A stretch of DNA of 64,000 nucleotides. It comes from Blastocatellia bacterium. GTDB lineage: Bacteria > Acidobacteriota > Blastocatellia > RBC074. This document shows, piece after piece, positions 2,992 to 30,531 of this stretch (position 1 is the first letter of the stretch; every line of letters begins with the position of its first letter). The stretch is taken from NCBI GenBank assembly GCA_043783625.1, contig JAYVZE010000200.1, positions 14,097 through 78,096 of the forward strand, read 5' to 3'. A program made the translations under genes and the position numbers. Below the pieces are notes generated by a model. That model was not told the DNA's origin, did not search any database, and worked only from the letters and a program-made list of their open reading frames with translations.

Positions 2992-3804
2992 ATGCGAATT
3001 GCCGCTTCAACTTATCTCAATTCTGCGCCGTTGATTTACAGTTTCACTTCCGGCATGCAGCGCAATCGCGCCATTTTTATTGGCGATGCGGCTCCCGCTC
3101 GTTGTGCGCAAATGTTAGCGAACGGGCAATGCGACATCGCGTTAATTCCGGTGATTGAATACCTGCGAATCCCGAACCTCCGCATCATCCCGAACGTGGC
3201 CGTAGCCTCTAAAAACCGGATCGAAAGCGTCATCCTTGCCACCAAATGCGAACCAAATAAAATTTCAAAAATCGCCTTGGACAGCTCTTCGCGCACTTCG
3301 CAAACCTTAGTCAAAATTTTGATGGCAAACCGGTTTCATCACCAGCCAACTTATTGCGAACGACTTCCTGATCCCGGCTGCGCGAATATGTTTGAGGGAA
3401 CCGACGCCGCGCTGGTGATTGGCGATCCCGCTTTTCACGTCAAAGCCAACGCCGAACGGCTTCATTTGAAGATTTACGACTTAGCCGAAGAGTGGAGAGC
3501 CTTAACCGATTTGCCCTTTGTCTTCGCCGTCTGGGTCGTGCGCGAAGATGCTTTGCCGGAATATCATCGCTTCAAATTAGATTTTGAAATGGCGAAACGC
3601 GAAGGATTGGAACGCGCTCACGAAATCGCGGAACAATACGCGACAGTACTGAATAAATCTTCTGCTGAATTATTTTCTTATCTCACGAAAAATGTGAACT
3701 ACGAATTAGACGGCGAAAATTTAGCAGGGCTGCGCGAATATTTCCGAGAAGCGTTTGAATTGCGATTGGTTGAGCAACAGAAAGAATTATTATTTGTCTC
3801 CTAA
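2992..3804 (+). CDS. mqnA: chorismate dehydratase MqnA (futalosine pathway of menaquinone biosynthesis; MqnA/MqnD family)
   Basis: Motifs LNSAPLIYSF, DIALIPV, SRTSQTLVKIL, LVIGDPAF and DLPFVFAVWVVRED match the MqnA periplasmic-binding-like fold family. Confidence 0.65.
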   Translation: MRIAASTYLNSAPLIYSFTSGMQRNRAIFIGDAAPARCAQMLANGQCDIALIPVIEYLRIPNLRIIPNVAVASKNRIESVILATKCEPNKISKIALDSSSRTSQTLVKILMANRFHHQPTYCERLPDPGCANMFEGTDAALVIGDPAFHVKANAERLHLKIYDLAEEWRALTDLPFVFAVWVVREDALPEYHRFKLDFEMAKREGLERAHEIAEQYATVLNKSSAELFSYLTKNVNYELDGENLAGLREYFREAFELRLVEQQKELLFVS

Positions 3805-3912
3805 TGCAGAAGCCCGCACACAGTAAGGGCGTCTTTTCTCCACAAGAATTATAGATATTTTTTAGTGCCTTCAAAATGTGAAGGCGCCCTTACTGCGTGC
3901 GGGCTTCTGCAT
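3804..3912. repeat. REP-like palindromic element family 1, copy 2, with inner hairpin gccttcaaaatgtgaaggc
   Basis: Arms atgcagaagcccgcacacagtaagggcgtc and ggcgcccttactgcgtgcgggcttctgcat. Same sequence family as 505..579. Confidence 0.75.
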
Positions 3913-3996
3913 TCTTTCTGCAAAAATAATTGTCAGTTGATAATGGGTAGTTGATAATGTTCCTCGCCAAACTTCTTTCCCCGGAGTTCAAAATTT

Positions 3997-6201
3997 ATGA
4001 ATAAAATTCTTCATCTCGCGCTCTTCATTTTATTGTTTCTTTCCCCACTTCAGGCGCAAACCAAGCGCGGATTCCTGCCCGAAGACCTCTATCAACTCAA
4101 GGACGTTGCCGATGCCAACATTTCTCCTGACGGCTCCCGCGTCGCCTACACCGTCACCGAAGTCAGTGCCGATCATTCGCGCAACGTCACGCACATCTGG
4201 TTAGTCAAAACCGAAGGCGGCGAACCAACCCGCTTAACAAAAGATGCTGCTGATGAAAGCACTCCGCGCTGGTCACCGGATGGAAAATGGCTCGCGTATT
4301 ATTCACAAGATGCTTTATGGGTCATCAACCCTGATGGCGGAAAGTCGCTGCATTTGCCGGATGGGAATTGGGTGAAGACGCCAAATACCGAACCACAAAA
4401 AATCACTCGTGTCGCCCGGACAAATTTCTTTTTTACCAAAGCCGGAGAAAGCTTCACCTGGTCGCCTGACAGCAAACAAATTGCGTTTGTGAGTGATCCG
4501 ATCATTCTGCCTCCAAACCCAATGATGGAGCGGCTGACACGTGGTTTAAGTCAGGACGAATTGATGCGGCTTCCGACCGAAACCAGAAATACAATTTTGA
4601 AAGCGCAGGGGAAATCTGCCGAACAAATTTCCGCGCTGGAAGCGGATTACAAAGCACAACAGGCGAAAGCCAGCAACTACACGACTGATGTCAAAGTCGT
4701 GACGCGGTTGCAGTACAAATCACGGACTTCGTTTTCAGACAATTTGCAATCCCACATTTTTATTGCAGACGTAGCAACGAAAGAACTGCGCCAATTGACG
4801 AGTGGAAATTATGCCGAGCATTCCATCAACTGGTCTCCGAAAGGCGATGAAATTGTCTTCGTCTCCAACCACGAACCCGATCCCGACAAAATTAACAACA
4901 CCGATTTATTTGTAGCCAACGTCACCACAGGCGCAGTGCGACAACTGACCAAAACAAAGGGCTGCGAATGGCAACCCGTGTTTTCGCCGGATGGCAGTCA
5001 GATTGCGTATCTGGCTACGACACGCGATGTGACGACGATTGATAGTGTGGCAGAAGATGCACATGCTTGGGTGATTTCAGCAAATGGTGAGAATGCGAAA
5101 GAATCCAGATCGCCGAAGAATGAGGATACTGGGCGGACAATGACAGTGAAATGGTGGAATAAATCTGAACCTGCTTTTCTTACAAATCACATGGGGCAAA
5201 CATATTTTTATGTAGGAATACCATTCCGCCAGCTCTTGGATAGTGCATTTGCCCAAATAAATAATTTCTCCGTATCTAATGGAATAAAATTTGTAAACGT
5301 CATTAATCATGATACTAAAATTCCAGAGGTATACTGTAAAACTTTATCAACTCCGCTAAACTCACATTTAAATCCGATTTCAGTAAAATCTTTATCAAGC
5401 CACAACAAAGCGCTCCAAGATTTGCTTCAGTTCGCTCCAATGATCGAATTTCAATTTCCAAACGAAGGTTTTGAGATAGAAGGCTGGCTTGTGCTTCCGA
5501 TTAATCTCGATGAGAAGAAAAAATATCCGGTGATTCTTTATATTCACGGCGGGCCGCACGGGATGCACGGGTACAGTTTCAATGCGACGGTGCAGGCTCT
5601 CGCGGCGAAAGGTTATGGCGTACTGCTCATCAATCCGCGTGGCTCATCCGGCTACGGACAAAAATTTTCGGATGGATGCGTGAATGATTGGGGCGGCGGC
5701 GATTACCGCGATTTGATGCGCGGCGTAGATGTCGCGCTGGAAAAATTTTCGTATCTCGACAAAGACCGCAGGGGCGTGATGGGCGGCAGCTACGGCGGCT
5801 ATATGACGAATTGGATTGTCACGCAAAACGACCGTTTCAAAGCCGCGATTGCCTCCGCGAGCCTGTCAAATCTGATCAGTTTTTATTCGACTTCGCTCTA
5901 TCAGGATTTGGTTCACGCCGAATTCAACGGGATGCCGTGGGACAATTACGAAAAATTGTGGGATCGTTCGCCGCTCAAACATATCAAAAATGTGAAGACG
6001 CCGACGATGCTCATCCACGGCGAAAACGACAACGATGTTCACATCACGCAAGCCGAAGAAATGTACACCGCCCTGAAAATGCGCGGCGTAGACACAGTGC
6101 TGGTGCGCTACCCGCGCGAAGGTCACGACATCCGCGAACCGAAACATCGCGTGGATAATTTGCAGAGAAATTTGGATTGGTTTGAGAAATATTTGAAGTA
6201 G
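3997..6201 (+). CDS. secreted S9 family serine peptidase (prolyl oligopeptidase / acylaminoacyl-peptidase type) with N-terminal TolB-like beta-propeller
   Basis: Signal peptide, SPDG propeller repeats, catalytic GGSYGGYM (GxSxG) nucleophile elbow, Asp and His in the C-terminal alpha/beta-hydrolase domain. Confidence 0.8.
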   Translation: MNKILHLALFILLFLSPLQAQTKRGFLPEDLYQLKDVADANISPDGSRVAYTVTEVSADHSRNVTHIWLVKTEGGEPTRLTKDAADESTPRWSPDGKWLAYYSQDALWVINPDGGKSLHLPDGNWVKTPNTEPQKITRVARTNFFFTKAGESFTWSPDSKQIAFVSDPIILPPNPMMERLTRGLSQDELMRLPTETRNTILKAQGKSAEQISALEADYKAQQAKASNYTTDVKVVTRLQYKSRTSFSDNLQSHIFIADVATKELRQLTSGNYAEHSINWSPKGDEIVFVSNHEPDPDKINNTDLFVANVTTGAVRQLTKTKGCEWQPVFSPDGSQIAYLATTRDVTTIDSVAEDAHAWVISANGENAKESRSPKNEDTGRTMTVKWWNKSEPAFLTNHMGQTYFYVGIPFRQLLDSAFAQINNFSVSNGIKFVNVINHDTKIPEVYCKTLSTPLNSHLNPISVKSLSSHNKALQDLLQFAPMIEFQFPNEGFEIEGWLVLPINLDEKKKYPVILYIHGGPHGMHGYSFNATVQALAAKGYGVLLINPRGSSGYGQKFSDGCVNDWGGGDYRDLMRGVDVALEKFSYLDKDRRGVMGGSYGGYMTNWIVTQNDRFKAAIASASLSNLISFYSTSLYQDLVHAEFNGMPWDNYEKLWDRSPLKHIKNVKTPTMLIHGENDNDVHITQAEEMYTALKMRGVDTVLVRYPREGHDIREPKHRVDNLQRNLDWFEKYLK

Positions 6202-6203
6202 TC

Positions 6204-6366
6204 GGAGCGCCAGCATCCTGCTGGCTCCGCGAGCGCGTGCAACGCCGCTCGCGTAACGTGGCGAGGAGTGCGAGTGATTTGCCAGTTAGCTCCCTCACCA
6301 AAAGCATTTGCATCGCTCGCGCTTGCAAACGCAGCAAGCAGGATGCTTGCGCTCCCAGTACGCTCC
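6204..6366. repeat. compound palindromic element carrying two copies of the GCNNGCAGGATGCNNGC(G/A)CTCC hairpin motif, between convergent genes
   Basis: ggagcgccagcatcctgctggctcc at 6204..6228 and gcaagcaggatgcttgcgctcccag at 6331..6355, with further internal hairpins. Confidence 0.6.
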
Positions 6367-6368
6367 AA

Positions 6369-7793
6369 TTATTGCGGAGTAAATTGTTTCAGGCTGATCT
6401 CACTCGCAATCTGCTGACGCGCTTTATTCAGTGAAGAAAATCTTCCCGCCGCGACTGCTTGCACCAACACATTGCCAATCACCGTCGCTTCAATCGGGCC
6501 TGCTAAAACAGGCTTCTTGCAGGCATTTGCGGTCGCTTGATTCAAATAATTATTCAGCGAACCGCCACCCACAATTTGCACGCCGCGAATTAATTTTCCG
6601 GTGAGTTCTTCAATCGTGCGAATGACCGAAGCGTAACGAAGCGCGAGCGAATCAAGAATTATTTTCGCAATAAATGCTGGCTCGTCACTGTTTTTTTGTC
6701 CGCCCTCAATCAGTAATTCTTTGATCGCAGCCAACATACTCGGCGGATTAAAAAGCCGCTCATCATCTGGAAAAATAACAACGGAATCACCTGAAATTTT
6801 TGCGACATCGGCAAGCAATCCATCGTAATCAACGCTCAAGCCTTGTGTCTGCCATTCCTTGCGACAGGATTCCAACAACCACAATCCCATCACATTTTTT
6901 AGAAAACGAATGGTGCCGAATGCGCCACCTTCGTTGGTGAAATTATGTTCGGCAGTTGCGGCATTGATGAGCGGCGCATAAAGCTCTAGGCCGACGAGTG
7001 ACCAAGTGCCCGAAGAAATATATGCCCAGTCGTTTAGCAACGGCGCACCTGCGACTGCGCTGCCCGTGTCGTGCGTAGCGGGTGCAATGACTTTTACATT
7101 GTGCAAATTCAATTCTTCGGCAAGCTCAGGTTTCAAGAATCCAACTTCGTCTCCGGTGGAAATAATCTCAGTGAATAAATGTTGTGGCAGACTGAGCGCA
7201 GCAATAATTTTTTCATCCCACGTGCGGCTTTCCGCATTCACCATTTGCATCGTCGTCGCGTTCGTATATTCCGTGACAGCCTTGCCCGTCAGAAAAAAAT
7301 TTATCAGGTCAGGCATCAGCAAAAGCCTGTCAGCATTGGTCGCAATACCTGCTTTCGCGTGGGCGCAGAGTTGCGAACTGGTGTTGAGCGTCAAAAATTG
7401 AATCCCCGTCCTAGCATAAATTTCTTCACGCGGCAGCTGCTCAAACAGTCGCTCAAAAATATTTGCCGTTCGTTCATCGCGATAACAAATCGGGTCTTCA
7501 ATCAAATTCCCCTGCGCGTCAATTAAGCCATAATCCACTGCCCAACTGTCTACGCCAAGGCTGTGAATAGGGCGTCCGAGCGCATTCGCACGTTTCGCGG
7601 CGGCGGACAATCCAATTTTAATTTCTGAAAATATATGCGTGAAGTCCCAGCGCAAATGTCCATCCAACTGACGCGGCGGATATTGAAAACGATGCGTTTG
7701 CTCCAGTAAAAATTCACCGGATGAAAGTCCAGCCAAAAAGACGCGTCCACTGCCCGCGCCCAGATCAACCGCAATATAAAGAAAGTTATTCAT
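6369..7793 (-). CDS. rhaB: FGGY-family carbohydrate kinase, rhamnulokinase-like
   Basis: N-terminal AVDLGAGSGRV phosphate-1 motif typical of RhaB, FGGY N- and C-domains, 474 aa. Sits in the rhamnose locus. Confidence 0.65.
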   Translation of the reverse strand: MNNFLYIAVDLGAGSGRVFLAGLSSGEFLLEQTHRFQYPPRQLDGHLRWDFTHIFSEIKIGLSAAAKRANALGRPIHSLGVDSWAVDYGLIDAQGNLIEDPICYRDERTANIFERLFEQLPREEIYARTGIQFLTLNTSSQLCAHAKAGIATNADRLLLMPDLINFFLTGKAVTEYTNATTMQMVNAESRTWDEKIIAALSLPQHLFTEIISTGDEVGFLKPELAEELNLHNVKVIAPATHDTGSAVAGAPLLNDWAYISSGTWSLVGLELYAPLINAATAEHNFTNEGGAFGTIRFLKNVMGLWLLESCRKEWQTQGLSVDYDGLLADVAKISGDSVVIFPDDERLFNPPSMLAAIKELLIEGGQKNSDEPAFIAKIILDSLALRYASVIRTIEELTGKLIRGVQIVGGGSLNNYLNQATANACKKPVLAGPIEATVIGNVLVQAVAAGRFSSLNKARQQIASEISLKQFTPQ

Positions 7794-7947: not shown

Positions 7948-10900
7948 TTAGAAACTAAGCTTCATTACCGCCTGCACCTGACGCCCTGTCGCGCCAAATA
8001 ACAAGCTGGAAATCACACCAGCACTCGCCGTACCAATGGAATTTCCCGGATTCGCAAATTGCGCGTGATTGAATGCGTTGAAGAATTCCACTTTGAATTG
8101 ATGCTCAAAGCGATCACGGAATTTGGTAATTTTCACGAGTGAAAAATCTACGTTGACCTGTTTTGGTCCACGTAAAATGTTACGACCGGAATTGCCATAC
8201 GTGCCAGTTGCGTCTGGCACAATTTGGAAAGCGGCTGTATCAAACCATTTGTCAATCGTAGGAGTGCTCAGCAATCCCGATCCGAGTCGGTTCGGACGAT
8301 TGCCCGTTCCGGTTGAAGCGACACCAACTGATTGGTTGACGCTGAACGGCAGACCTGTGCGAGCCAGGAAAATACCGCTCAATTGCCAGCCACCCAGGAA
8401 TTTATCCACAATGGCATTGTCGCCCGTATTCAGCAGCTTGCCTTTGCCGACAGGTAAATCATACGTCCAGCTTGAACTGAAAGTATGCTTGATGTCGAAA
8501 TCTGAAACAGCGCGATCACGTCTGAAATCATACGCGTTTTGCACTGTGCCTTCTGTGTCGGAAACAACGTCAATTGTTTTGCCGAAAGTGTAGGCATTGA
8601 GGAATTGCAAACCGTTCGAGAAGCGGCTTGAAAATTTCATCAACAAGGCATGGTGATTGGAATCACCGCGACTTTGTACCTGTGACAACGAGCGTAAGCC
8701 TGGTGCCAGAACGATGAAAGGGCGGTTGACGTTGGAGTCAGAGATGCCCACTACCGGCTTCGCCTGATTAATGTCCATCTTGGCAACAAGGTGTGTGCCT
8801 TTGGAGCCAACGTAGGACATTTCCAGCGCGTAGTTTTTGCTGAGCTGTTGCGAGACGTTCAGGTTCCACTGTTGCGCATAACCATCTTTGAAATTCGTCT
8901 CAAAGATAGAGCGCGTTGTGCCTGTCGGAATAGCCGCAGGATTCAGCGCGGGTGGCGCAGGAATACCAGCACTGATTTTGTACAACGGCAAATAGGTGGT
9001 TGTTTGTGAATTGGAAAGCAGGAACGGCGGGCTATTCGCCTTGGAGGACGAAGTACCCGTCAGAGGGTTATTCCAGAAAATTCCATAGCCTCCACGGGCA
9101 ACGGTTTTGCCTTTGCCGAAAACGTCATAAGCAAAACCAATGCGCGGCGCGAAATCTTTTTTGGGAATCGTCTGCAAATAACGACCGACTTTGACACCAC
9201 CGATGGTGGCACTGTCAGACGCTACGATAAAGCGACCGATGCTGGCATCGAAATTCGATTGACGATTATACTGCTCAACATACGGCACAAACAGGTCGTA
9301 ACGTAAGCCTAAATTGACCGTCAACTTGCTGTTCACGCGCCAGTCATCCTGCACATACGCGCCATATTCAGGGCGGCGTTCACCATAAATTCCCTGCATA
9401 AGTCCACGTGTGACACCCGAAGCATAGCCCAGCATAAAGCTGGCAAGCCCAAAGCCGCTGGTTGCATTCTGGCTGCAACCTGACGCAATACCTGCGCAGT
9501 TCGAAGTCAGATTCTGGTTGAAGTTGAAATTTCCAACAATGCTATCAACGTTGAAAATGTTACGACGACGTTTCGTATAGCTACCACCCACTTTGATGGT
9601 ATGCGCGCCGCGTGTGTGGGTCACGTTATCAAAAAACTGGAACGTATCTAAAAACGTGAGCAGAGGTTGATTGCCGTTGGCTCCGAGGTTACGAATGTCA
9701 CCCTGAGCGAAGACAATCTGCGACATCGCGGTTGCCGTGTCCGTAATGTTGACGCCGGGAATTCCGACTGTACTTGCCAGATTTGTTCCGAAATCAATGG
9801 AAGTCACTTTGAACGCGATACGGCTGGCACCAAAGCGAAACTCATTCAACCAGTGTGGATTAATCGTATGCGTATCGTTGATGGCCAAACTTTGTCCGCG
9901 AATCAAACCGTTACCAGCACCGAACGTGGTACCCGCATCACCATGCGGCAAGGTTGCAGGCAGAAAACGATTGGTTCGCTCAAAGCTGTAACGCACAAAA
10001 GCGTGATTTTTCTCGGAAAAATAATGATCAATTTTCGTATCAAATTGATCGTCTTCGCGTTTCAAAACCGGGTTGCTCAGATAATTATTAATGACCTGAC
10101 CGTTCGCGGCGGTGGTTCCCGTCACGTTCGGCAATGGATATAACTGATCAATAATTTTACGTGAAGTCGGGTCAATCATGCTCGCAGGAATAACGTTCCC
10201 AGCAAACGCAGCTTTGGCAACCGGATCATAAATCGTGCGCGTCAATTCCGAAAAATCTCCGGCACGCATTTTCAAAGTTGGAACCGAGGAAAGATAAGTT
10301 TTACCGTCTCGGATTCTGGTTCCTTGATAATCGCCAAAGAAAAATGTTTTGTCGCGGTAGATGCGTCCACCTAACGTCCCACCAAATTGATTTTGCTTGA
10401 ACGGTGGTTTCTTGCGTCCGTTTTTATTATTGAAAAAATCGTTCGCGTCTAAAGCATCATTGCGCAAAAATTCAAACGCATTGCCATGAAAAGCATTTTG
10501 CCCGGATTTGATTTGGATGTTCACCACGCCGCCGCTGGAGCGTCCGAACTCTGCGGAATAGGTGCTGGTTTGCACTTTGAATTCTGCCAGCGCATCAATG
10601 CTGGGGAAGATCACCACCGAGTTCAGCCACGTTTCGTTATTGTCCACGCCGTCGAGCAAAAAGTTATTGTCGCGGGTGCGCATTCCGTTCGCCGAAAACG
10701 AAGCTGATGCACGCCACGCCAGACTGCCTGCGCCGTCAATATTCGCGCCGGGAATTCCGCGCAACACACCAGGCAAAGTTCTGGTCAATTGCACGAAGTC
10801 ACGACCATTCAACGGCAGATTTTTAATTTGTGATTCGTTGATCGTGCCGCTGAGATCAGAGCTATCCGTTTGAATTAAGGGCACTGTGCCTTCAATCTGA

Positions 10901-11241
10901 ATTGTTTCCGTTGCTTGTCCGACTTTCAAAGCGAGATCAATACGCGCCTTTTGGTCAACACCGAGCTGAACATCACTCACGGCTAATTTGCTGAAACCAG
11001 CCATTTCTACCGTGATGTTGTAAGCACCAATCGGCAGCGACGGCGCAATATATTCGCCAGAGCCATCACTGGTCAGCGTCCGTGAAACGCCAGTAGCTTT
11101 TTGCACCAGCGTAATTTTTGCACCAGCAACTGCGGCTCCACTCGGGTCAGTCACTGTGCCGAGAATCGTTCCACTTACTGCCTGTGCAAATGAAGAGGCA
11201 GCAAAAAGTGCCAGGAAGACGAGAGTTAGAAAAATATTCAT
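7948..11241 (-). CDS. TonB-dependent receptor with N-terminal carboxypeptidase-regulatory-like domain
   Basis: Signal peptide, CarbopepD_reg-like N-terminus, plug and 22-strand barrel length. Ends in a C-terminal aromatic residue (KLSF). ATG at 11241 gives a clean signal peptide. Confidence 0.8.
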   Translation of the reverse strand: MNIFLTLVFLALFAASSFAQAVSGTILGTVTDPSGAAVAGAKITLVQKATGVSRTLTSDGSGEYIAPSLPIGAYNITVEMAGFSKLAVSDVQLGVDQKARIDLALKVGQATETIQIEGTVPLIQTDSSDLSGTINESQIKNLPLNGRDFVQLTRTLPGVLRGIPGANIDGAGSLAWRASASFSANGMRTRDNNFLLDGVDNNETWLNSVVIFPSIDALAEFKVQTSTYSAEFGRSSGGVVNIQIKSGQNAFHGNAFEFLRNDALDANDFFNNKNGRKKPPFKQNQFGGTLGGRIYRDKTFFFGDYQGTRIRDGKTYLSSVPTLKMRAGDFSELTRTIYDPVAKAAFAGNVIPASMIDPTSRKIIDQLYPLPNVTGTTAANGQVINNYLSNPVLKREDDQFDTKIDHYFSEKNHAFVRYSFERTNRFLPATLPHGDAGTTFGAGNGLIRGQSLAINDTHTINPHWLNEFRFGASRIAFKVTSIDFGTNLASTVGIPGVNITDTATAMSQIVFAQGDIRNLGANGNQPLLTFLDTFQFFDNVTHTRGAHTIKVGGSYTKRRRNIFNVDSIVGNFNFNQNLTSNCAGIASGCSQNATSGFGLASFMLGYASGVTRGLMQGIYGERRPEYGAYVQDDWRVNSKLTVNLGLRYDLFVPYVEQYNRQSNFDASIGRFIVASDSATIGGVKVGRYLQTIPKKDFAPRIGFAYDVFGKGKTVARGGYGIFWNNPLTGTSSSKANSPPFLLSNSQTTTYLPLYKISAGIPAPPALNPAAIPTGTTRSIFETNFKDGYAQQWNLNVSQQLSKNYALEMSYVGSKGTHLVAKMDINQAKPVVGISDSNVNRPFIVLAPGLRSLSQVQSRGDSNHHALLMKFSSRFSNGLQFLNAYTFGKTIDVVSDTEGTVQNAYDFRRDRAVSDFDIKHTFSSSWTYDLPVGKGKLLNTGDNAIVDKFLGGWQLSGIFLARTGLPFSVNQSVGVASTGTGNRPNRLGSGLLSTPTIDKWFDTAAFQIVPDATGTYGNSGRNILRGPKQVNVDFSLVKITKFRDRFEHQFKVEFFNAFNHAQFANPGNSIGTASAGVISSLLFGATGRQVQAVMKLSF

Positions 11242-11539
11242 ATTCCCGAAAAATCGGGAATGCTTAGGATGGATCATTTGTATCTCCTTGAGAGTTTCGT
11301 TGATAGATAAATCACTTCATAGCAAAGATTGGCGGAAATATCCTTCTATTCAAAAGGTGATTTGCAAAACTCCCGACAAAGCTGATTTGAGTTTTTTTGA
11401 TTACTACTTTTTGGCAATCAGATTAATTCTTATTAGTAACACAACGCCTACGCATTTTCGTGCAACAATGGAATGAAGTATACCGCAATAAACTGCGTAC
11501 ACAAAATCATTGACCAATAATTAATGATTATAATGCAGG

Positions 11540-12974: not shown

Positions 12975-13484
12975 TCAATCAAACTCTGGCAGATCATCAC
13001 CCTGCCCATTAAGAACATAATCAACGGCACGCTCTACACTCCGTTCATTCCATAAATAGCGAGTACTTCCTTTGTCCGCCCAAGGGCTTCGCTTAAGCAA
13101 CCATAGTCCATCTTGTTTCAGTTGTCTTGTAGCATTTGCTTTCAGCGCATTGAGCGCAAGCTCAACAGATTTTTCTCCGATACAAACAACAACATGAACA
13201 TGATTGGTACGGATGTTAAGTGCATAAATGTCCCATTTTCGGAAACCACACGTTTCGCGGACAGCAGTCTCAACTGAAGAACGATGAGTCGCCTCTAGTT
13301 TTACAGGTTCACAAACGAGCTTGCCTTCATTGTATTCGCGCCACTTCTCATTAGTCGGAATATATGGCGAACGATATTTATTATTAAATCGATTTATTGA
13401 GCCGCGTTCGTCACCATGTAGCCACGTTCCGTAACAACGAAACGTGATTAAGTAGGCAAGTGGGATTTCCGTGTTATTCCACAT
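12975..13484 (-). CDS. REP-associated tyrosine transposase (RAYT), IS200/IS605-like HUH Y1 transposase
   Basis: 169 aa, HUH motif TNHVHVVV, catalytic Tyr context RAVDYVLNGQ, flanked on both sides by family-2 REP palindromes. Confidence 0.75.
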   Translation of the reverse strand: MWNNTEIPLAYLITFRCYGTWLHGDERGSINRFNNKYRSPYIPTNEKWREYNEGKLVCEPVKLEATHRSSVETAVRETCGFRKWDIYALNIRTNHVHVVVCIGEKSVELALNALKANATRQLKQDGLWLLKRSPWADKGSTRYLWNERSVERAVDYVLNGQGDDLPEFD

Positions 13485-15872: not shown

Positions 15873-18800
15873 TTATTTCTTTTCCCACACTTTGACCGGA
15901 CCAAGCAAGCCCGATGGTAACAATGGTGAATTTGCCTGATAAAAAGGCATCGTCGTATAAGTAATTTTGTTCGTCATATTCGGCTGCTGATCGCCGATGA
16001 GCCGATTCACCCACAAATTCGTCACCTTCACTTCCAACTTATTTTCCCCTTTTTTAACTGCACTGGAAACGTCTATGGTGAAGGACTGTTTCCAAAGAAT
16101 GCCCAAATTTTTTCCATTCACAATTACCTCCGCTAAATTCTTCACCGCGCCTAAATCAATTTCAATTCTTGTTCCTTTAGCAATGACCGGAAGGCTGAAG
16201 GTGGATTGATACGTTGCAGTCCCTGAAAAATATTTGATGCCCGCGTCAGGATTTTCCGTCCACGATTGCAGGGCGGTAAGAGTCGTTGTTGCGGGTGCGC
16301 CGCGCTCTGCTTGAAATGTTACTTTCCAGGGATTCGTAATTGTGGCGATTTGTTTTTCGACGGTTTTTGGTTGGGTGTAAGAAGCAACGGTTGCTTTGCC
16401 TTTGAAGATAACAAAAATAGCGTCATTCGGCTCTAAACGAAGCGGAATGATTGTTCGTCCATCTTTGATTTGAAACGAAACTTTTTCCATTTGCCCATTT
16501 TCGGGATGCCAGATTTCCGGCGTTTTACCTGTAACTCTGAAGCTCGTTTCAATCGCTTCAACCCGATCCTTTCTGTTGTTGATCCAATAAATTTCACGGT
16601 CGGGTAAGGTGCGATGTACGGATAAAATTTCTGTATCGTTGGTTAGTTTTGCGTAGGTGAAATCCGCTTGAATATTTTTCGCGGCGAGCGTTTGTTCTAG
16701 CGACTGCGCCTGAAAAACATTTTTATTATCGCTGCTCCAAACTTCGGCAACAATTGTTTTGAACTCTGCCTGATTGTCGCTCAAGCTCGCATTTTTTTCG
16801 GGCTTGATGCCTGTGATTGTGGCTCCGGCTTTCACCAAATCTCTGATTTTGTGCAGGACTGGCAGCGACATGTTTTTCGCATTTTCATCCAGTGCCAAAA
16901 CCTGATAGCTCATCCCACTGGGCGTCCCAATCTTGCCGTCTTTCACTGACAACACATTTATCAAGGCATCTGCATTAACGAAATCAAAGCTATAGCCTGC
17001 GGGAATGTTCGGTAATTTTTTGCCGAATAACGCGGTGATGTTGTTGTCTTCGCCGTAGTAATACAGCACATCAGCGACAAATTTTCCTTGCTGTAACAGA
17101 TAAGAACTGCGGCTCAAATAATCCGTCCAAGCCTTTGCCTGTTCCCCCCAGGTTTCATGCCGCGTGAACCATTGACCGAATGGCCCAAGGCCTAAACCAG
17201 GAATTTTTTGATCGGAAGGTTGATGCACCGAGGTATGAATGACGAAGCGATTTAAGCCGCTCGCCAGTTCAAGATCAGCCGTCGGTTTTAAATTTTCCGG
17301 CGAATAAGACCACGCCGAGCCGCCTACGCCGAGTGCCGTGAGCGATTCGGCAGCCACTAAATTTTGACCATAGATATGAGCGACAGCAGCAGATTCTAAA
17401 ATATCGGCGCGATGCCCTGTTTGGTCGCCTTGGTTGATTGGTCCCGGCGTCCAAATGGCGGACATTGGCACATCGGCTTTGCGCTTCACTTCCATCCCGT
17501 CAGCAATCATCGCACGACCGTTTTCGTGCGATTCGCTGTATCTGCCCATTCCGCGTTTGTGGAGCAAATCACCGAGTTGATCGTAATGATTTTCCGCGAT
17601 TAAATCAGCCAGCGTTTTTCTGAAGTCCCACAAAAATTGTTCGCTCGCTTCCGTGCTTTTGATGATCTTTCCGGTGAGTACAGGCATCCACGGCTTCAAA
17701 TCATAGCCGCGTCGCCTGGCAAATTCTGCCATCAGATTTTTCGTCCAGTTTGCGCCACCTGCTTCATAACTGTCTGTGACGAGGTATTGCACACCTTTTT
17801 TGCCCATCAATCCGCCTGTCGCATTTTTGTATTGGTCGAGATAATTTTCAAAATAATCTTTGACGGCTTGCGCGTCGAGTTTGTCTACTTCCAAGCCCGT
17901 AGCTTCGGGCGAAGCCGGGTGATTTTCAATGCCGAGCAATGAATATCCCATCCGCAACACAACCCAATTTCCAGCGGGAGCCACCCATTCAAGCGTGCCG
18001 TCCGATTTCATTTTGGAAGTTACATCCACCACATCATTCGTGGGAATTGCATCGGTTGTTTCAGGAGTGATGAATTTTGCCAATTCACCTGACGGTGTAA
18101 AACCTGCTTTCTCTTCCAAACGATTTACGCGGTACGCCGTATGCAAAACGATTTCGGCAACGTCCGTTCCTTTGGGTTTCATGTCCCCCATCGGCAGCCC
18201 CATCATCGCCGCAATCATATTCGGTTGCGGCGGAAGAGTTTTGAAATTGACGCGAAAAAACTTCGCCGTGACTGGAGCAAACGTCAGTGAATTCTGCGGA
18301 ATTTGCGTCGTTGGAATTTGCAAAATCTGTCGAAAATTTATTCCATCATCGCTGGCTTCCAACGTACGATTGCTGACCGCTTCACCAAATTGCGAAGCCG
18401 GTTCTCCGCCAACAATTGTCAGGGCTTTGAAGGTTTGTAGTTGCGCAAATTCAAATTGTATCCACGCGTTTTGTCCGATGGCGGCGGGCGGCAACAATGA
18501 CGATTTTGCGAGGTCGTCATCGGTCAATGCACTAACCTCAAATTGTCCGCCGCTGGAAGAAATTTTCGGATTCAATTCGCGCAAGGAAAGATCAGCTTCA
18601 GGAACACGATAGGCAATAACAACAGTATCTTCGTAAAATGTATGCGCAGGATTCGCTTCGTGCAGAAGCCCCAACGGATCACGAAAAGGAATGTTTTGAA
18701 ATGCTCCAGTTACACCAGAAGGCTGCGGTAATTTGCCAAAAAATGTTTGCCCGCCTTTGATGCGTGTTTCCGTCCAGACATATTTTTTCATGCCGTCTTT

Positions 18801-19217
18801 GGCGGGAACCCACGGGCCGCCGCTTTCGCTCCAACCGGGCGAACCTGCGATTGCCATTTCCAATCCTAATTTGTCGGCGAGTTCCGTCGTGAATTTAAAA
18901 GCGTCTTTCCACTCCGGCGTCATGTAAATTAATCGTTTGTCCACTACCTGCGGCGTGAATAAACTCGCATCAAAATTTTGAAAGCCTCCGATGCCGACGC
19001 GTTTCATCCATTCAAGGTCTTTTTGAATTCCTACTTTCGTGATGTTGCCGTTCATCCAATGCCACCATACGCGTGGCTTGGCGGCATCGGGTGGATTTTG
19101 GAAGCCTTGCATTAACGGATCGGTTTGTCCGATAGCGCTGCGTTCTGAAATTATTCCAGCGATGCTAACGACAACTAGCAGGCAAATTAAAAGGCGGATG
19201 AAATAGTGCTTTCTCAT
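15873..19217 (-). CDS. secreted large glycoside hydrolase, GH106-like (putative alpha-L-rhamnosidase)
   Basis: Signal peptide and N-terminal PRVWWHWMNGNITKVGIQKDLEWMKRVGIGG motif characteristic of this family. 1114 aa. Located in the rhamnose locus. Family assignment is from motif memory. Confidence 0.5.
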   Translation of the reverse strand: MRKHYFIRLLICLLVVVSIAGIISERSAIGQTDPLMQGFQNPPDAAKPRVWWHWMNGNITKVGIQKDLEWMKRVGIGGFQNFDASLFTPQVVDKRLIYMTPEWKDAFKFTTELADKLGLEMAIAGSPGWSESGGPWVPAKDGMKKYVWTETRIKGGQTFFGKLPQPSGVTGAFQNIPFRDPLGLLHEANPAHTFYEDTVVIAYRVPEADLSLRELNPKISSSGGQFEVSALTDDDLAKSSLLPPAAIGQNAWIQFEFAQLQTFKALTIVGGEPASQFGEAVSNRTLEASDDGINFRQILQIPTTQIPQNSLTFAPVTAKFFRVNFKTLPPQPNMIAAMMGLPMGDMKPKGTDVAEIVLHTAYRVNRLEEKAGFTPSGELAKFITPETTDAIPTNDVVDVTSKMKSDGTLEWVAPAGNWVVLRMGYSLLGIENHPASPEATGLEVDKLDAQAVKDYFENYLDQYKNATGGLMGKKGVQYLVTDSYEAGGANWTKNLMAEFARRRGYDLKPWMPVLTGKIIKSTEASEQFLWDFRKTLADLIAENHYDQLGDLLHKRGMGRYSESHENGRAMIADGMEVKRKADVPMSAIWTPGPINQGDQTGHRADILESAAVAHIYGQNLVAAESLTALGVGGSAWSYSPENLKPTADLELASGLNRFVIHTSVHQPSDQKIPGLGLGPFGQWFTRHETWGEQAKAWTDYLSRSSYLLQQGKFVADVLYYYGEDNNITALFGKKLPNIPAGYSFDFVNADALINVLSVKDGKIGTPSGMSYQVLALDENAKNMSLPVLHKIRDLVKAGATITGIKPEKNASLSDNQAEFKTIVAEVWSSDNKNVFQAQSLEQTLAAKNIQADFTYAKLTNDTEILSVHRTLPDREIYWINNRKDRVEAIETSFRVTGKTPEIWHPENGQMEKVSFQIKDGRTIIPLRLEPNDAIFVIFKGKATVASYTQPKTVEKQIATITNPWKVTFQAERGAPATTTLTALQSWTENPDAGIKYFSGTATYQSTFSLPVIAKGTRIEIDLGAVKNLAEVIVNGKNLGILWKQSFTIDVSSAVKKGENKLEVKVTNLWVNRLIGDQQPNMTNKITYTTMPFYQANSPLLPSGLLGPVKVWEKK

Positions 19218-26692: not shown

Positions 26693-29600
26693 TCACCAAA
26701 CTAACTTGGCTCCAAGCTGGTTAATACGTGCGGCTCTGGCACTAAGTATCTTGCCAAAATTCACCGTATCAGCCACGCTACGAACTGGGTTGCCCCATTG
26801 CGTATGGTTGAAGGCATTGAACGATTCGAGACGGAATTGGAAGCTCAATTTCTCCGTGATGGTGAAATTTTTGAACAAACCTGTATCCCAATTGTTAATG
26901 CCTGGTAATCGCAGAATGCCACGCCCTGAAGTTCCGAGGAATCCAGCGGCAGGTTGTTTGAAAGCTGCGGTATCAAACCATTTGTCAATAGTTTTGAGCA
27001 ACGAGGCTTTCCCGACTATATCCGCCCGATTCGTTCCAAAGGTATCATTCAATCCCCCGACATCGGCTGCCGAAATTGTCATCGGGAAACCGTTCTGGAA
27101 GGTGGCAATTGCATTGACTTGCCAACCACCAATTAAGATGTCCGCAGCTTTGTGCAAATTGCCTCCGAATTTCTTGCCGCGTCCGATAGGCAATTCATAA
27201 ACGAAGCTGCTCACCAAGCGGTGATTCACATCGAATTCTGAACGTCCACGGTCACGACGAATGTCGCTATTATCTAAAAATCCCTGCCAACCCGCGACAT
27301 CGTTTCCGATACCGGCAGCGGCAGATTTGCTATCAATGCTCTTAGCCCAGGTATAGACCAAAGTGAAGAGCAACGAATTGCTACGATGCTCAACCTTGGC
27401 ATTGAAGGCATTGTAACTGGAGTTCCCTGACCAATCGCTATCAATGTAAGTAGCAAAATTAACGAAAGGTCTGCGAGCCAGCACAGGGCAATCACCAACC
27501 GTTGGGGTAGCGGCGCAAAGAGCAGGATTAACAGGCTTACGTGATTGGGCAATTTGTCGCCGCATCAGCAAGTGAGTCCCTTTTGAACCAATATAATTGA
27601 GTTCAAGGGTAGTGTTGGTACTGAGCGAACGTTGCGCGCCGAGTGACCATTGCTGAACATACGGATTTTTTGGGTTCGGCGAAATATTCACTGCCAGAAA
27701 CGTGTTTGCCGCCGGTGACGCTACGCCAACGTTGGCAAAATTCGGAAACAATTGGTTTGTGGTCAGCAAGTTTGTCTGACCTAAACTTTGCGTGTAATTC
27801 CCACGACTGACATACGGGAAAATATCTGCAGCTCCATCAATTTCGCGCCCTTCGGCGGAGTCGTAAAAAATGCCATATCCACCACGTAAAACTGTTTTGT
27901 CATCACTAAATGGACGCCACGCAAAACCGAGGCGCGGAGCAAAGACTTTCTTCGAGGCGTCAGCAGGATTGCGACGACCGGCAAACTTATAATAGCTTTG
28001 GTCGCCAACGATTCCTTTATCCACAAGAGTCTGATCCGCTACCAGCAAGCCCCCCTTTGGATTGGACAGATCGCGCCATCCCATGCGGTTGTTTGTTTCG
28101 TAGGGAACTGAGCGATAATCCCAACGTACTCCTAGATTCAGAGTGAGCCGTGAGTTAATTTTCCAGTCATCCTGAATATAAGGAGCAACATATAGAAAAT
28201 TAAATTCACGTGGATTGCCTGTCTTGCCTGCAACGCTAAAGCCTGCTGGCTGGAAGACGCTTGCACCCGAAAAATAACCTAACAGAAAATCCGCAATTGC
28301 ATTGTCTCTGGTAGCATTTCCGGTGAAAAACCCGCTGAACGTAAACTGACCTAAGAAATCATTCGCCAGATCGCGTTGCAGCGACCATTTACGGAAATTG
28401 AATCCCATATTCAGCGTATGACGACCACGAATCCAAGTCGTAGTGTTGCTGATGTCCACCATCGGCTGATTACTGGATTGGTAATCATTGACCGCGCTGC
28501 CTCCGCCGGAAAGCCCTGCTCCGACACCACCGAAACCGACTGCTGGATAGGAACGCTGATCGTCAGGTAATCCGGTAAAGACACCCGTCAATTTCAGAGT
28601 ATCTATATCAGCCTGTGGAGCGGTCGCTCCATGCTGAACAGCACCTGCCTCAATGTAACCAAAGCGAAATTGATTCACGAGATTTGAACTGAAGGGAATC
28701 GTATGCGAAATCTGCCAGTTCTTGGTTTTTTGAACGAAGTCTACGTCTCCTAGTTCAGTCGTGTTTCCGATGGCAGTGTTAGTGTAATCAGATTGTGTAT
28801 AGCGACCAAAGACTGTGCCCAAGCGACCAAGTTGCTGATCGCCGCGAATGGTGTATTGCTTTTGATCCAGCGGCAAATTGCGAACCCGAAGATAGTTTCC
28901 ACCCGTACCAGTGAAATTCGGCGCCGGGAAAAACTTCGTGGCAGCGAGCTGTGCCAGACGCGAAAAACGGTTCGTTGGAACAATGTTGCCGACAAATGGT
29001 AACCCTGTCACAGGATCAAGAATTTGCGAGGTGAATTTGCCCCCTAGCTGATCGGCAGTCGGGACAGTCAGCAAATCCGATGATCCCGCGATTCGCTTAT
29101 ACCCTTCAAAATTCGCCAGCCAGAATGATTTATTACGTCCATCATAAAGCTTGGGAATCCACACTGGACCGCCAACTACAAAACCATATTGATCTTGTTT
29201 TAATTTGGTTTTCTTGACTCCGCGCGCATTATTAAAGTAATTGTTAGCGTCAAATTTATCTCTCCGCCCAAACCAGAAAACCGTTCCGTGTAAATCGTTC
29301 GTCCCCGTCTTACTGACGATATTGACCTGATTGGCACTGAAGCCATACTCCGCTGAGTATGTTCCGGTTTGCTCTTTGAATTCCTGAATGGCATCAATAG
29401 ACAAAATTGCCGCCGGGGTTCCCAGTGCGGTATCCGTGTTTGACGTTCCATCAAGCAAGTAATTGTTTGAGGTTGGACGCGCACCATTAATACTAATAGC
29501 ATTACCCGCGCCTTGGCGCATTCCACCTTGCTCTCCGTTTGTCTCAACGGTTCCACCATTCAGAAATAACAAGGACAAAAAATTGCGCCCGTTAAGAGGT

Positions 29601-30037: not shown

Positions 30038-30531
30038 ACATTAAACTCCTGAAATAAAATCGTTTAGGGATTGAAAACGACTTCCTGTGTGAAAACATTA
30101 TGGTCTCATCAGAAAAGATGAGTACACACACTAAACCTCAAGCTGAAGGGACTACTTCAGCTTAGATACAATTCGTAAAATAACGAGTGGCTGTCATTTG
30201 AATAGATGACAGCCTAGCTAACTTAATTAATTTTTCTATTTGTTAATTAGCCTGCTACTACGAGTAATTTCACTCAGCAAAGATGATTAGAAATCTTAGA
30301 AATTATTAGATCGAAAGTGACAATTATGAATTATGGTGCTTTTGTTTAAATTAGCAATAAGAAATATTTTGCGTATCTATTTTTCCATAATGCGGAACGA
30401 TCTTCTAATAAAATAAAAGACTTTACCAGGTTTAACCTGAAATAATTCAGAATATTAATTCCGATATATGGAATTAGTTAGTAAAATAAAGCTTCCAGGC
30501 TCATTACATCGCAGCACTTTTACTGAAGCAC
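30038..30531. promoter_or_regulatory. 494 bp strongly AT-rich intergenic region upstream of the TonB-dependent receptor gene, containing three stable hairpins
   Basis: Hairpins ctcatcagaaaagatgag, gctgaagggactacttcagc and ggctgtcatttgaatagatgacagcc. No ORF. Composition far below flanks. Confidence 0.45.

What the first reader, a model, noticed from the sequence alone, without database searches (positions are those of the whole stretch)
5140..5550. In-frame, strongly AT-rich roughly 400 nt segment inside the S9 peptidase gene
Base composition drops sharply (visually about 35% GC versus above 55% in flanks) across the end of the propeller and the linker to the catalytic domain. The reading frame stays open through about 130 codons of AT-rich sequence, which is improbable without selection. 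This pattern fits a recombinational mosaic (a segment acquired from a low-GC donor) or a lineage-specific insertion forming an extra domain (sequence ..TVKWWNKSEPAFLTNHMGQTYFYVGIPFRQLLD..).
Basis: seen in the sequence. Interest (0 to 1): 0.5.

Follow-up and report, generated by a model that had tools for sequence, protein, structure and literature searches.

The report
Swappable AT-rich two-blade peptidase cassette
The AT-rich stretch encodes the last two blades of the beta-propeller of an exported S9 serine peptidase, and in this group of Blastocatellia (Acidobacteriota) those blades are a hypervariable module exchanged between strains by recombination while the rest of the enzyme stays almost unchanged.

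Summary
Window 5140-5550 is 35.8% GC against a window mean of 49.6%. Third-codon GC is about 0.33, against 0.52 +/- 0.07 for coding windows. The frame is open against odds of about 1e-4.

It is not an insertion. The segment is colinear with blades 6-7 of the seven-bladed propeller of a 734-aa S9C-type peptidase (triad S598/D678/H710, signal peptide).

In the window's clade, aa ~359-480 (nt ~5071-5436) is hypervariable in every ortholog. Flanks are 85-99% identical and the cassette 15-30%.

- Two syntenic 14.5-kb loci that are 97-100% identical differ only here (36-49% nt identity; flank dS 0.13, cassette saturated).
- Cassette types recur on divergent flanks (Mantel r 0.22, against 0.83-0.97 in sister clades).
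- Within a type, dN/dS is 0.1-0.34. The alleles are therefore functional and are exchanged by homologous recombination, not decaying.

The AT shift is mostly at third codon positions. It occurs in 17 of 20 clade members, tracks host GC with an offset of about 0.27, and is absent where the blades are inherited vertically.

A single import from a low-GC donor is not supported. No DGR template, silent copy, phage, plasmid or other donor was found. The selective agent is unknown.

The parts
3997..6201 (+). Complete ORF of 734 aa plus stop: an exported S9 (prolyl-oligopeptidase family, S9C-like) serine peptidase.
   Evidence: ORF list. Pfam Peptidase_S9 scores 3.7e-58 on aa 527-734, with four PD40 stretches and DPPIV_N. 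The closest solved relatives are S9 carboxypeptidases and acylaminoacyl peptidases 8wt1, 7ep9, 5yzm and 4hxe, by sequence and by fold (TM 0.65-0.82). The identical protein occurs in NCBI and in a Logan assembly.
3997..4059 (+). Probable Sec signal peptide (aa 1-21, MNKILHLALFILLFLSPLQAQ).
   Evidence: Read directly from the sequence: a basic N-terminus, a hydrophobic core and a small-residue motif LQA|Q. AF2 models it as a lone helix at aa 2-19. No signal-peptide predictor was available, so this is an inference.
4060..5070 (+). Conserved part of the beta-propeller: blades 1-5 with a helical insertion at aa ~175-227.
   Evidence: SPDG-type repeats start at aa 42, 92, 155, 279 and 329. The AF2 strand groups agree. 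Column identity among the 27 closest homologs is 0.64-0.94.
5071..5436 (+). Hypervariable cassette (aa ~359-480): propeller blades 6 and 7 plus the start of the linker helix. Boundaries are good to about +/-15-30 nt.
   Evidence: Column identity is 0.15-0.29 here, against 0.8-0.99 in the flanks. The nt-identity breakpoints lie at aa ~350-365 and ~480-495 in seven gene pairs. AF2 gives strands 380-386, 392-398, 401-406 and 411-415 for one blade, 419-427, 431-438, 444-450 and 461-465 for the next, and a helix at 471-476; block pLDDT is 61-96, mostly 77-96. The window's allele is a singleton, at most 30% identical to any of 86 other cassette sequences of the clade.
5100..5500 (.). AT-rich tract: GC below about 0.45, with a minimum of 0.24-0.31 at 5240-5400.
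   Evidence: Composition profiles. GC3 is 0.33 against 0.58 in the flanks of the same gene.
5437..5574 (+). Conserved hinge: a beta-hairpin and the strand leading into the hydrolase domain (aa ~481-526, ..PMIEFQFPNEGFEIEGWLVLP..KKYPVILYIHGGPHG). This is the right-hand recombination flank.
   Evidence: Alignments. Nucleotide identity recovers to 0.83-0.98 from aa ~494 onward. AF2 strands are 482-489, 492-499 and 510-516.
5575..6198 (+). Alpha/beta-hydrolase catalytic domain with the triad Ser598 (nt 5788-5790, GGSYGG), Asp678 (nt 6028-6030) and His710 (nt 6124-6126).
   Evidence: Pfam PF00326 covers aa 527-734. S598, D678 and H710 are invariant in 117 homologs and their positions were checked. 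The assignment of Asp678 rests on the D-x-x-V motif as in DPP4 Asp708, which is my own knowledge.

Best explanation
SHOWN. The segment encodes blades 6 and 7 of the seven-bladed beta-propeller that caps the catalytic domain of an exported S9C-type serine peptidase. In the window's Blastocatellia clade these two blades behave as a replaceable module.
- The sequence on both sides is highly conserved.
- Whole cassette alleles share no detectable nucleotide similarity.
- These alleles sit on near-identical backbones in different strains, and related alleles sit on divergent backbones.
- Within one allele class the cassette evolves under purifying selection at an ordinary synonymous rate.

Together these results mean that old, functional alleles are moved around by homologous recombination with breakpoints in the conserved flanks. 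They exclude in-situ decay, an insertion and local hypermutation.

INFERRED. The diversity is kept by diversifying (negative frequency-dependent) selection on a face of the enzyme seen by something variable. Candidates are a phage or other binding partner, an inhibitor, or a substrate class.

THE AT-RICHNESS (shown as a pattern; its cause is inferred). The shift is mostly at third codon positions. It is shared by nearly all alleles of the clade, tracks each host's GC with an offset of about 0.27, and is absent in sister clades where the same blades are inherited vertically. It is therefore tied to cassette turnover itself. My preferred cause is that alleles too divergent to recombine with one another escape the GC-raising force that acts on the rest of the genome (biased gene conversion, or weak selection made inefficient by subdividing the population into allele classes). 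They then slide toward the AT-rich mutational equilibrium.
For: Identity of the gene. Triad.

Colinearity and fold.

Family-wide hypervariability. Flank column identity is 0.8-0.99 against 0.15-0.29 for the cassette. All eight orthologs with DNA show it.

Decoupling of cassette and flank (percent aa identity, flank vs cassette):
- P0032/P0036: 98.1 vs 23.6
- P0019/P0026: 96.0 vs 19.5
- P0011/P0013: 95.9 vs 25.2
- P0023/P0040: 77.1 vs 82.2
- P0010/P0029: 74.5 vs 70.1

Strain-level replacement. L090 and L091 are syntenic over 14.5 kb and 97-100% nt identical. A stretch of about 500 nt inside this gene is 36-49% identical, with slightly lowered identity (0.91-0.95) for about 400 nt to its right. 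Flank dS is 0.13, against cassette pS 0.84 and pN 0.57.

The window against its three syntenic nearest orthologs (synteny). Flank dS is 0.49-0.59 with omega 0.065-0.084. Cassette pN is 0.56-0.575. There is no nt similarity with 17 of 19 clade members (z about 0).

Within-type constraint. Cassette omega is 0.105 and 0.28-0.34, against 0.09-0.16 in the flanks. Cassette dS (0.31-1.30) is comparable to flank dS (0.51-0.70).

Clade specificity. Mantel r between flank and cassette identity is 0.22 in the window's clade, against 0.83 and 0.97 in sister clades. Of pairs with 90-99.5% flank identity, 10 of 11 have a cassette below 50% identical in the window's clade, against 0 of 29 in the sister clade.

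Allele diversity. The 87 distinct cassettes fall into 42 single-linkage groups at 45% identity.

AT shift.
- GC3 is 0.27-0.49 in the cassette against 0.55-0.75 in the flanks for 17 of 20 clade members. GC2 is unchanged.
- The mean offset is 0.27, and cassette GC3 tracks host GC3 (Spearman 0.67-0.69).
- The dip correlates with excess divergence (rho 0.59, p 7e-8).
- Other poorly conserved parts of the same gene keep normal GC3, and the same blades in the sister clade have GC3 0.57-0.69.
Against: - The window's own allele is a singleton. No second copy on another backbone was found. For this particular allele the exchange is therefore inferred from its clade, not demonstrated.
- No formal recombination test (GARD, RDP, ClonalFrame) and no site-wise selection test could be run.
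- Identities inside the cassette rest on alignments of barely alignable sequence.
- Many alleles are singletons, which also fits episodic rapid divergence in some lineages.
- Three clade members (L096, L097, L100) have divergent cassettes without a GC3 dip, so the link between AT shift and turnover is not absolute.
- The average GC of my approximate intergenic set is 0.446, not about 0.35. 'Mutational equilibrium' is therefore not established.
- The selective agent and the structural face involved are unknown, because no model coordinates were available to me.
- Most sequences are metagenome assemblies. The window's gene was, however, recovered identically in an independent assembly.
Confidence: 0.75

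Rival explanations
1. In-situ rapid divergence. The two blades lost most of their constraint in this clade and drift fast under AT-biased mutation. The frame is kept open only because the catalytic domain lies downstream. No exchange between lineages is involved.
For: The cassette is less constrained than the flanks (omega up to 0.34 against about 0.1). Many alleles are singletons. The GC3 dip correlates with excess divergence. Only a few blade-anchor residues are conserved.
Against: - With flank dS of only 0.13, even neutral evolution could not saturate both synonymous and non-synonymous sites (L090/L091).
- Within a type, dS equals flank dS and omega is 0.1-0.34, so there is neither hypermutation nor neutrality.
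- At omega of about 0.3-0.4 and dS of about 0.55, the window should be about 65-70% identical to its nearest orthologs in the cassette. It is 18-24% identical.
- Related types sit on backbones only 75-77% identical.
- Other weakly conserved parts of the gene have normal GC3.
- AF2 models the cassette as two well-formed blades.
Confidence: 0.1
2. One reading: a single horizontal import of this segment into the window's lineage from a low-GC donor organism.
For: GC is low at all codon positions, especially the third. The window's allele has no relative among its clade. The gene is demonstrably mosaic.
Against: - Nearly every ortholog in the clade has its own AT-shifted cassette.
- Cassette GC3 tracks host GC3 with a constant offset instead of sitting at one donor value.
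- None of the sampled relatives has flank GC3 as low as the cassettes.
- No donor or relative was found in 1.84 billion representative proteins (one spurious repeat-protein hit), JGI metagenomes, viral contigs, phages or plasmids.
Confidence: 0.08
3. Programmed diversification: a diversity-generating retroelement, or gene conversion from silent cassettes (pilE/pilS or vlsE style), rewrites the segment.
For: The hypervariability is sharply localised inside an otherwise conserved ORF.
Against: - There is no second copy of the segment or its flanks, at DNA or protein level, anywhere in the 64-kb window.
- There are no meaningful direct or inverted repeats at the boundaries.
- Alleles differ by indels and at all bases, not at adenines only, and share no nt similarity.
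- The within-type synonymous rate is ordinary.
- There is no cross-frame similarity, so frameshift resets are excluded.
Confidence: 0.03
4. Artefact or insertion: either a metagenome assembly chimera, or a lineage-specific inserted extra domain, intron or intein.
For: Most of the data are MAG or metagenome contigs. Many contigs break at or near the cassette.
Against: - An independent Logan assembly reproduces the window's gene with 0 mismatches in 2205 nt, and its whole 2346-nt contig is an exact substring of the window.
- Every assembly gives an open, blade-like cassette.
- Protein length equals that of the homologs and the segment is colinear.
- There is no Rfam match.
- The fold is two regular blades.
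Confidence: 0.02

Closest known systems
S9C-type peptidases of the prolyl-oligopeptidase family: acylaminoacyl peptidases and S9 carboxypeptidases (PDB 8wt1 Geobacillus, 7ep9 Fusobacterium, 5yzm Deinococcus, 4hxe Pyrococcus)
   Same: Seven-bladed propeller followed by an alpha/beta hydrolase with a Ser-Asp-His triad. Sequence E-values run down to 3e-93 and fold TM-scores are 0.65-0.82. The gene is a member of this family.
   Different: It has a signal peptide and a helical insertion in the propeller. Its last two blades turn over as a cassette in this clade. I know of no report of that for any S9 enzyme, and nothing relevant turned up in three literature searches.
Flagellin (fliC) central hypervariable domain between conserved termini (my own knowledge)
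   Same: A conserved frame on both sides, a central region that cannot be aligned between allele classes, and alleles spread by recombination in the conserved flanks. This gives discordant flank and centre phylogenies.
   Different: Flagellin's variable part is a surface domain of variable size on a structural filament and is linked to host immunity or phage. Here the variable part is two integral blades of fixed architecture in an enzyme of free-living soil or mat Acidobacteriota.
Low-GC hypervariable polysaccharide loci (O-antigen and capsule clusters) flanked by conserved genes (my own knowledge)
   Same: A hypervariable, recombination-exchanged module that is systematically more AT-rich than its genome. 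For these loci too, a 'low-GC donor' was the classical and still debated reading.
   Different: Those are multi-gene loci of 10-20 kb. This is a 370-nt intragenic module kept in frame.
Domain swapping in type I restriction HsdS target-recognition domains, and mosaic protease or PBP genes (iga, pbp2x) (my own knowledge)
   Same: Discrete protein modules are exchanged by homologous recombination through conserved spacer sequence. In iga, a secreted serine protease gene is mosaic.
   Different: The protein families differ and the selective agents are known (phage DNA, antibodies, antibiotics). None of those is known here.
Variable regions of diversity-generating retroelements
   Same: Hypervariability confined to about 100-130 codons of an otherwise conserved ORF.
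   Different: There is no template repeat. The changes are not adenine-specific, indels occur, and alleles share no nt similarity. This is not a member.

Membership tests
Peptidase family S9 (prolyl oligopeptidase family) | C-terminal alpha/beta-hydrolase domain matching the family profile above its curated threshold | tested here: met
   PF00326 scores 197 bits against a cut-off of 22.6, on aa 527-734. PDB relatives are all S9 enzymes.
Peptidase family S9 (prolyl oligopeptidase family) | Catalytic triad in the order Ser (GxSxGG) - Asp - His | tested here: met
   GGS598YGG, D678 and H710 are invariant in 117 homologs. Catalytic activity itself is not testable here.
Peptidase family S9 (prolyl oligopeptidase family) | N-terminal seven-bladed beta-propeller capping the active site | tested here: met
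   Four PD40 stretches and DPPIV_N. The AF2 model has seven four-strand groups. The fold matches S9 carboxypeptidase and AAP structures over both domains.
Named S9 equivalogs (Dpp5; Atxe2 lasso-peptide isopeptidase) | Score above the NCBIfam curated cut-off | tested here: not met
   Dpp5 scores 275 bits against a cut-off of 900. The lasso peptidase model scores 133 against 400. The gene is therefore an S9 peptidase of unassigned specificity.
Recombination-exchanged intragenic hypervariable cassette (flagellin-like mosaic gene) | Conserved flanks around a segment that cannot be aligned between alleles, in orthologs at the same locus | tested here: met
   Synteny of the nearest orthologs.
Recombination-exchanged intragenic hypervariable cassette (flagellin-like mosaic gene) | Near-identical genomes carrying different alleles, with abrupt breakpoints | tested here: met
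   L090/L091. L092/L093. In the window's clade, 10 of 11 close pairs differ in the cassette.
Recombination-exchanged intragenic hypervariable cassette (flagellin-like mosaic gene) | Discordance between flank and cassette relationships (the same type on divergent backbones) | tested here: met
   Mantel r is 0.22 against 0.83-0.97 in sister clades. This was not shown for the window's own singleton allele.
Recombination-exchanged intragenic hypervariable cassette (flagellin-like mosaic gene) | Alleles are functional (purifying selection within a type) | tested here: met
   Omega is 0.105-0.34 in four same-type pairs of the clade. This cannot be tested for the window's allele, which has no same-type partner.
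Recombination-exchanged intragenic hypervariable cassette (flagellin-like mosaic gene) | Diversity maintained by diversifying or frequency-dependent selection | not testable with these tools
   This needs population allele frequencies and site-wise tests on denser sampling.
Diversity-generating retroelement target | A template repeat about 90% identical to the variable region, with a reverse transcriptase nearby | tested here: not met
   There is no second copy of the segment in 64 kb at DNA or protein level. The ORFs were not individually scanned for a reverse transcriptase.
Diversity-generating retroelement target | Variation restricted to adenine positions of the template, with no indels | tested here: not met
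   Alleles differ in length and share no nt similarity.
Silent-cassette gene conversion systems (pilS / vls type) | Promoterless donor copies of the variable segment in the same genome | tested here: inconclusive
   None occurs in the 64-kb window. The rest of the genome was not available.
Inserted element (extra domain, intein, intron) | Extra length relative to homologs, with element-specific motifs or RNA structure | tested here: not met
   Lengths are the same and the alignment is colinear. There is no Rfam hit. The fold is two regular blades.

The most novel reading that the evidence does not exclude
In one Blastocatellia clade, two propeller blades of an exported housekeeping-type peptidase became the target of an arms race with a phage, an inhibitor or a competitor. 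They are held as a large, ancient multi-allelic polymorphism by negative frequency-dependent selection. Because the alleles cannot recombine with one another, their synonymous sites decay to about 0.27 below the host's GC3. That would make the locus a natural, internally controlled experiment showing that recombination-linked forces (biased gene conversion or weak selection), not mutation, hold up bacterial GC content.
Probability: 0.2. Interest if true: 0.7.

Novelty: new member of a known kind. Interest (0 to 1): 0.5.

Why it matters
Hypervariable, recombination-shuffled modules are the usual signature of molecules at the interface with enemies or partners. Examples are flagellin, O-antigen, pilins, receptor-binding proteins and restriction specificity subunits. 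Finding the same signature in two structural blades of a conserved secreted peptidase marks that enzyme as a likely interaction target in organisms for which almost nothing is known about phage receptors or antagonism. These are uncultured, free-living Acidobacteriota.

The locus also offers an unusually clean contrast, with three comparisons available:
- Within one gene and one genome, the flanks and the cassette differ by about 0.27 in third-codon GC.
- Sister clades, where the same blades are inherited vertically, show no GC3 shift.
- Other weakly conserved parts of the same gene keep normal GC3.

This makes the long-standing question of why exchangeable or flexible DNA is AT-rich (donor origin, or loss of a GC-raising force) directly testable with population data.

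Practically, the cassette breaks metagenome assemblies. It would also mislead annotation or phylogeny that treats the gene as a single unit.

Tried and rejected
- Insertion or extra domain. Rejected on colinearity and equal length and on the two-blade fold.
- DGR or silent cassettes. tblastn and blastn of the segment and its flanks against the window found only the segment itself. The boundary repeats are short, chance-level matches.
- Structured RNA or intron. No Rfam match at E <= 1 in 3500-7000.
- Frameshift-and-reset origin of the new peptide sequence. There is no cross-frame similarity and no nt similarity to the cassettes of orthologs.
- Donor hunt for the window's allele.
  - The representative-protein search gave one hit (P0121). 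It is a 1089-aa tandem-repeat protein matched in seven stretches, so I judged it spurious.
  - The JGI metagenome peptide-pattern scan found none.
  - Viral contigs, phages and plasmids gave none.
- Two short-query runs of the search for homologous proteins returned nothing, not even the window's own protein P0001. Those negatives are uninformative.
- The genome-contig scan was swamped by distant S9 genes and gave few close relatives.
- Homogenised synonymous sites next to the cassette, as possible recombination anchors. No clear excess over the rest of the gene.
- 'Weak constraint alone makes AT'. Rejected because other variable parts of the gene, and the same blades in the sister clade, keep normal GC3.
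- 'Cassette composition equals intergenic composition'. Only partly true. Individual spacers reach 0.25-0.36 GC, but my approximate intergenic average is 0.446.
- Literature searches for S9 propeller variability or oligomer interfaces gave nothing specific. The Deinococcus S9 carboxypeptidase paper is not in the library.
Full report
1. THE OBSERVATION

The window is 49.6% GC. The flagged stretch 5140-5550 is 35.8% GC, about 3.3 SD below the mean of 400-nt windows. The trough is 24-31% GC at about 5240-5400. The flanks are 46-58% GC, not uniformly 'above 55%'.

The shift is mainly at third codon positions. GC3 is 0.33 in the segment and 0.58 in the rest of the gene, while GC2 is 0.37 against 0.41. 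Across 1523 windows of 123 codons in 39 ORFs of the window, GC3 averages 0.523 +/- 0.066. Only this segment and the start of one other gene (37397-39082) fall to 0.27-0.34.

The frame is open although local composition gives a 6.5e-5 chance of that. Only 2 of 20,000 shuffles stay open, and the other five frames carry 5-11 stops. An independent Logan assembly reproduces the gene exactly.

2. THE GENE

ORF 3997-6201 encodes a 734-aa protein. It has a probable signal peptide, PD40/DPPIV-type propeller repeats and a Peptidase_S9 domain. It falls below the cut-offs of the named equivalogs Dpp5 and lasso-peptide isopeptidase.

Its nearest solved relatives, by sequence and by fold, are S9 carboxypeptidases and acylaminoacyl peptidases: 8wt1, 7ep9, 5yzm and 4hxe. 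Ser598, Asp678 and His710 are invariant in 117 homologs.

Homologs carry the labels Blastocatellia and Acidobacteriota. The neighbours are a menaquinone-biosynthesis gene upstream and an FGGY kinase and a TonB-type outer-membrane protein downstream. They are functionally unrelated, and they differ in more distant orthologs.

3. NOT AN INSERTION

Close homologs are 714-742 aa long. In alignments the segment is colinear with the last part of the propeller of distant relatives. It keeps their anchor residues: R380 (invariant), W386 and G400 (at least 90% conserved), plus the QI..FS, P.EVY and L..N motifs.

AlphaFold2 (pLDDT 80.5, pTM 0.80) folds aa 380-415 and 419-465 as two regular four-stranded blades, followed by a short helix. 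Block pLDDT across the cassette is 61-96, mostly 77-96. Counting SPDG-type repeats, these are blades 6 and 7 of seven.

4. HYPERVARIABLE IN THE WHOLE CLADE

Among the 27 closest homologs, column identity is 0.8-0.99 on both sides but 0.15-0.29 across aa 361-480. The same holds for eight orthologs with DNA, and in all eight the segment is GC-depressed.

Breakpoints in seven gene pairs lie at aa ~350-365 and ~480-495. That places the cassette at nt ~5071-5436.

5. EXCHANGE, NOT DRIFT

Flank identity and cassette identity are decoupled:

| Pair | Flank aa identity (%) | Cassette aa identity (%) |
|---|---|---|
| P0032/P0036 | 98.1 | 23.6 |
| P0019/P0026 | 96.0 | 19.5 |
| P0011/P0013 | 95.9 | 25.2 |
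| P0023/P0040 | 77.1 | 82.2 |
| P0010/P0029 | 74.5 | 70.1 |

The clearest case is L090 against L091. These are syntenic 14.5-kb loci from two related samples and are 97-100% identical at the nucleotide level. About 500 nt inside this gene are only 36-49% identical, and identity is mildly lowered for about 400 nt to the right, as expected of an imported tract. Flank dS is 0.13, yet in the cassette both synonymous (pS 0.84) and non-synonymous (pN 0.57) sites are saturated.

P0036's allele belongs to a type also seen in P0012, P0026 and P0027, on backbones with flank dS of about 1.1.

Within a type the cassette is under purifying selection. Omega is 0.105 for P0010/P0019 and 0.28-0.34 for the L099/L001/L101 trio, against 0.09-0.16 in the flanks. 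Cassette dS (0.31-1.30) is comparable to flank dS (0.51-0.70). The alleles are therefore working protein and there is no hypermutation.

For the window itself, the three nearest orthologs sit in the same gene neighbourhood. Their flank dS is 0.49-0.59 and omega is 0.065-0.084. At the cassette's own within-type rate, that predicts about 65-70% identity. Observed identity is 18-24%. There is no nucleotide similarity with 17 of 19 clade members.

The clade holds at least 87 distinct cassettes, in 42 groups at 45% identity. The window's allele is a singleton with a best match of 30%.

6. CLADE SPECIFICITY

In the window's flank clade (20 sequences with DNA), Mantel r between flank and cassette identity is 0.22. 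Of pairs with 90-99.5% flank identity, 10 of 11 have cassettes below 50% identical.

In the sister clades r is 0.83 and 0.97, and 0 of 29 such pairs differ in that way. There the same blades are merely the least conserved part of the protein and are inherited vertically.

7. THE AT-RICHNESS

- In 17 of 20 clade members, cassette GC3 is 0.27-0.49 against 0.55-0.75 in the flanks. GC2 is unchanged.
- The mean offset is 0.27. Cassette GC3 rises with host GC3 (Spearman 0.67-0.69).
- The dip correlates with how much more diverged the cassette is than the flanks (rho 0.59, p 7e-8).
- It is not a general effect of weak constraint. The signal peptide and other variable stretches of the same gene keep GC3 0.58-0.66. 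The homologous blades in the sister clade have GC3 0.57-0.69 at 38-61% identity.

A single low-GC donor therefore does not explain the pattern. None of the sampled genomes has flanks as AT-rich as the cassettes, and no donor was found.

The shift travels with cassette turnover. My preferred cause is an inference. Alleles that cannot form heteroduplex with one another escape GC-biased conversion. Equivalently, subdividing the population into allele classes weakens selection for GC. The alleles then drift toward the AT-rich mutational equilibrium. A shared, partly ameliorated cassette pool is the alternative.

Three members without a dip (L096, L097, L100) and an intergenic mean of 0.446 are caveats.

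8. OTHER MECHANISMS EXCLUDED

- There is no second copy of the segment or its flanks in the window, so no DGR template or local silent cassette.
- There are no boundary repeats beyond chance.
- There is no Rfam family.
- There is no cross-frame similarity.
- There is no special homogenisation of synonymous sites beside the cassette.

9. COMPARISON WITH KNOWN SYSTEMS

The gene is an ordinary member of peptidase family S9. The behaviour of the segment is that of a recombination-exchanged hypervariable module, as in the flagellin central domain, HsdS recognition domains, mosaic iga or pbp genes and, for the low GC, O-antigen loci. These comparisons rest on my own knowledge.

I found no report of such a module in an S9 propeller. 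It is best filed as a new member of a known kind of evolutionary pattern.

10. VERDICT

- The 'mosaic' reading is supported.
- The 'low-GC donor' and 'inserted domain' readings are not supported.
- Why these two blades are under diversifying pressure is unknown. Exposure to a phage, an inhibitor or a partner on an exported enzyme is the most likely reason, but it is inferred only.

Interest is moderate (0.5). The pattern is clean, clade-specific and unreported, and it makes the cause of AT-rich flexible DNA testable. The mechanism of exchange itself is conventional.

Noticed in passing
window 37397-39082 (- strand), especially about 38570-39082: A 561-aa cytochrome c + glucose/sorbosone dehydrogenase (GSDH propeller) fusion. 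Its first ~170 codons have GC3 of 0.27-0.34. It is the only other coding stretch in the window as AT-shifted as the S9 cassette. In several orthologous loci a GSDH-type gene sits directly upstream of the S9 peptidase (L087, L089, L092).
   Followed up: partly
window 12975-13484 (- strand): A 169-aa ORF with an IS200-like Y1 transposase domain and low GC3 (0.35). It is probably a small mobile element.
   Followed up: partly
window 29981-30640: The most AT-rich stretch of the window (GC down to 24.5%). It lies in the spacer between the ORFs 26693-30037 and 30532-31686.
   Followed up: no
window 7948-11277, 15873-19217, 26693-30037, 33425-36703, 60810-63899 (all - strand): Five ORFs of about 1030-1115 aa. 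The first was scanned and is a CarboxypepD_reg + plug + outer-membrane beta-barrel (TonB-dependent-type) protein. The others are similar in size and may be paralogs.
   Followed up: partly
window about 4333-4380 (aa ~113-128 of the S9 protein, KSLHLPDGNWVKTPNT): A 16-residue loop between propeller blades 2 and 3. It is present in the window, P0002 and P0006-P0008 and absent in other close orthologs. This is a second, smaller presence/absence polymorphism in the same gene.
   Followed up: no
L005 (starts at aa 489 of the gene); L102, L111, L122, L127, L131, L167, L169 (contigs end within or near the cassette): Many metagenome contigs stop at or next to the hypervariable cassette. This is what assemblers do where co-existing strains differ, so it hints at several alleles within single samples. 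The sampling was anchored just upstream, so the enrichment was not quantified.
   Followed up: partly
L090 vs L091: L090 9620-9720, 10120-10320, 13918-14118: Three further short patches of 72-82% identity in otherwise 97-100% identical loci. They lie in or near a SpoIIM-like gene, its downstream spacer and an apolipoprotein-like ORF. They suggest frequent small recombination imports in this population.
   Followed up: no
L108 (ORF ends with a stop after 386 aa); L148, L151, L152, L163 (HGGP or GSYGG motif not found): A few distant orthologs may be truncated or may have altered catalytic motifs. They could be pseudogenes, sequencing errors or true variants.
   Followed up: no
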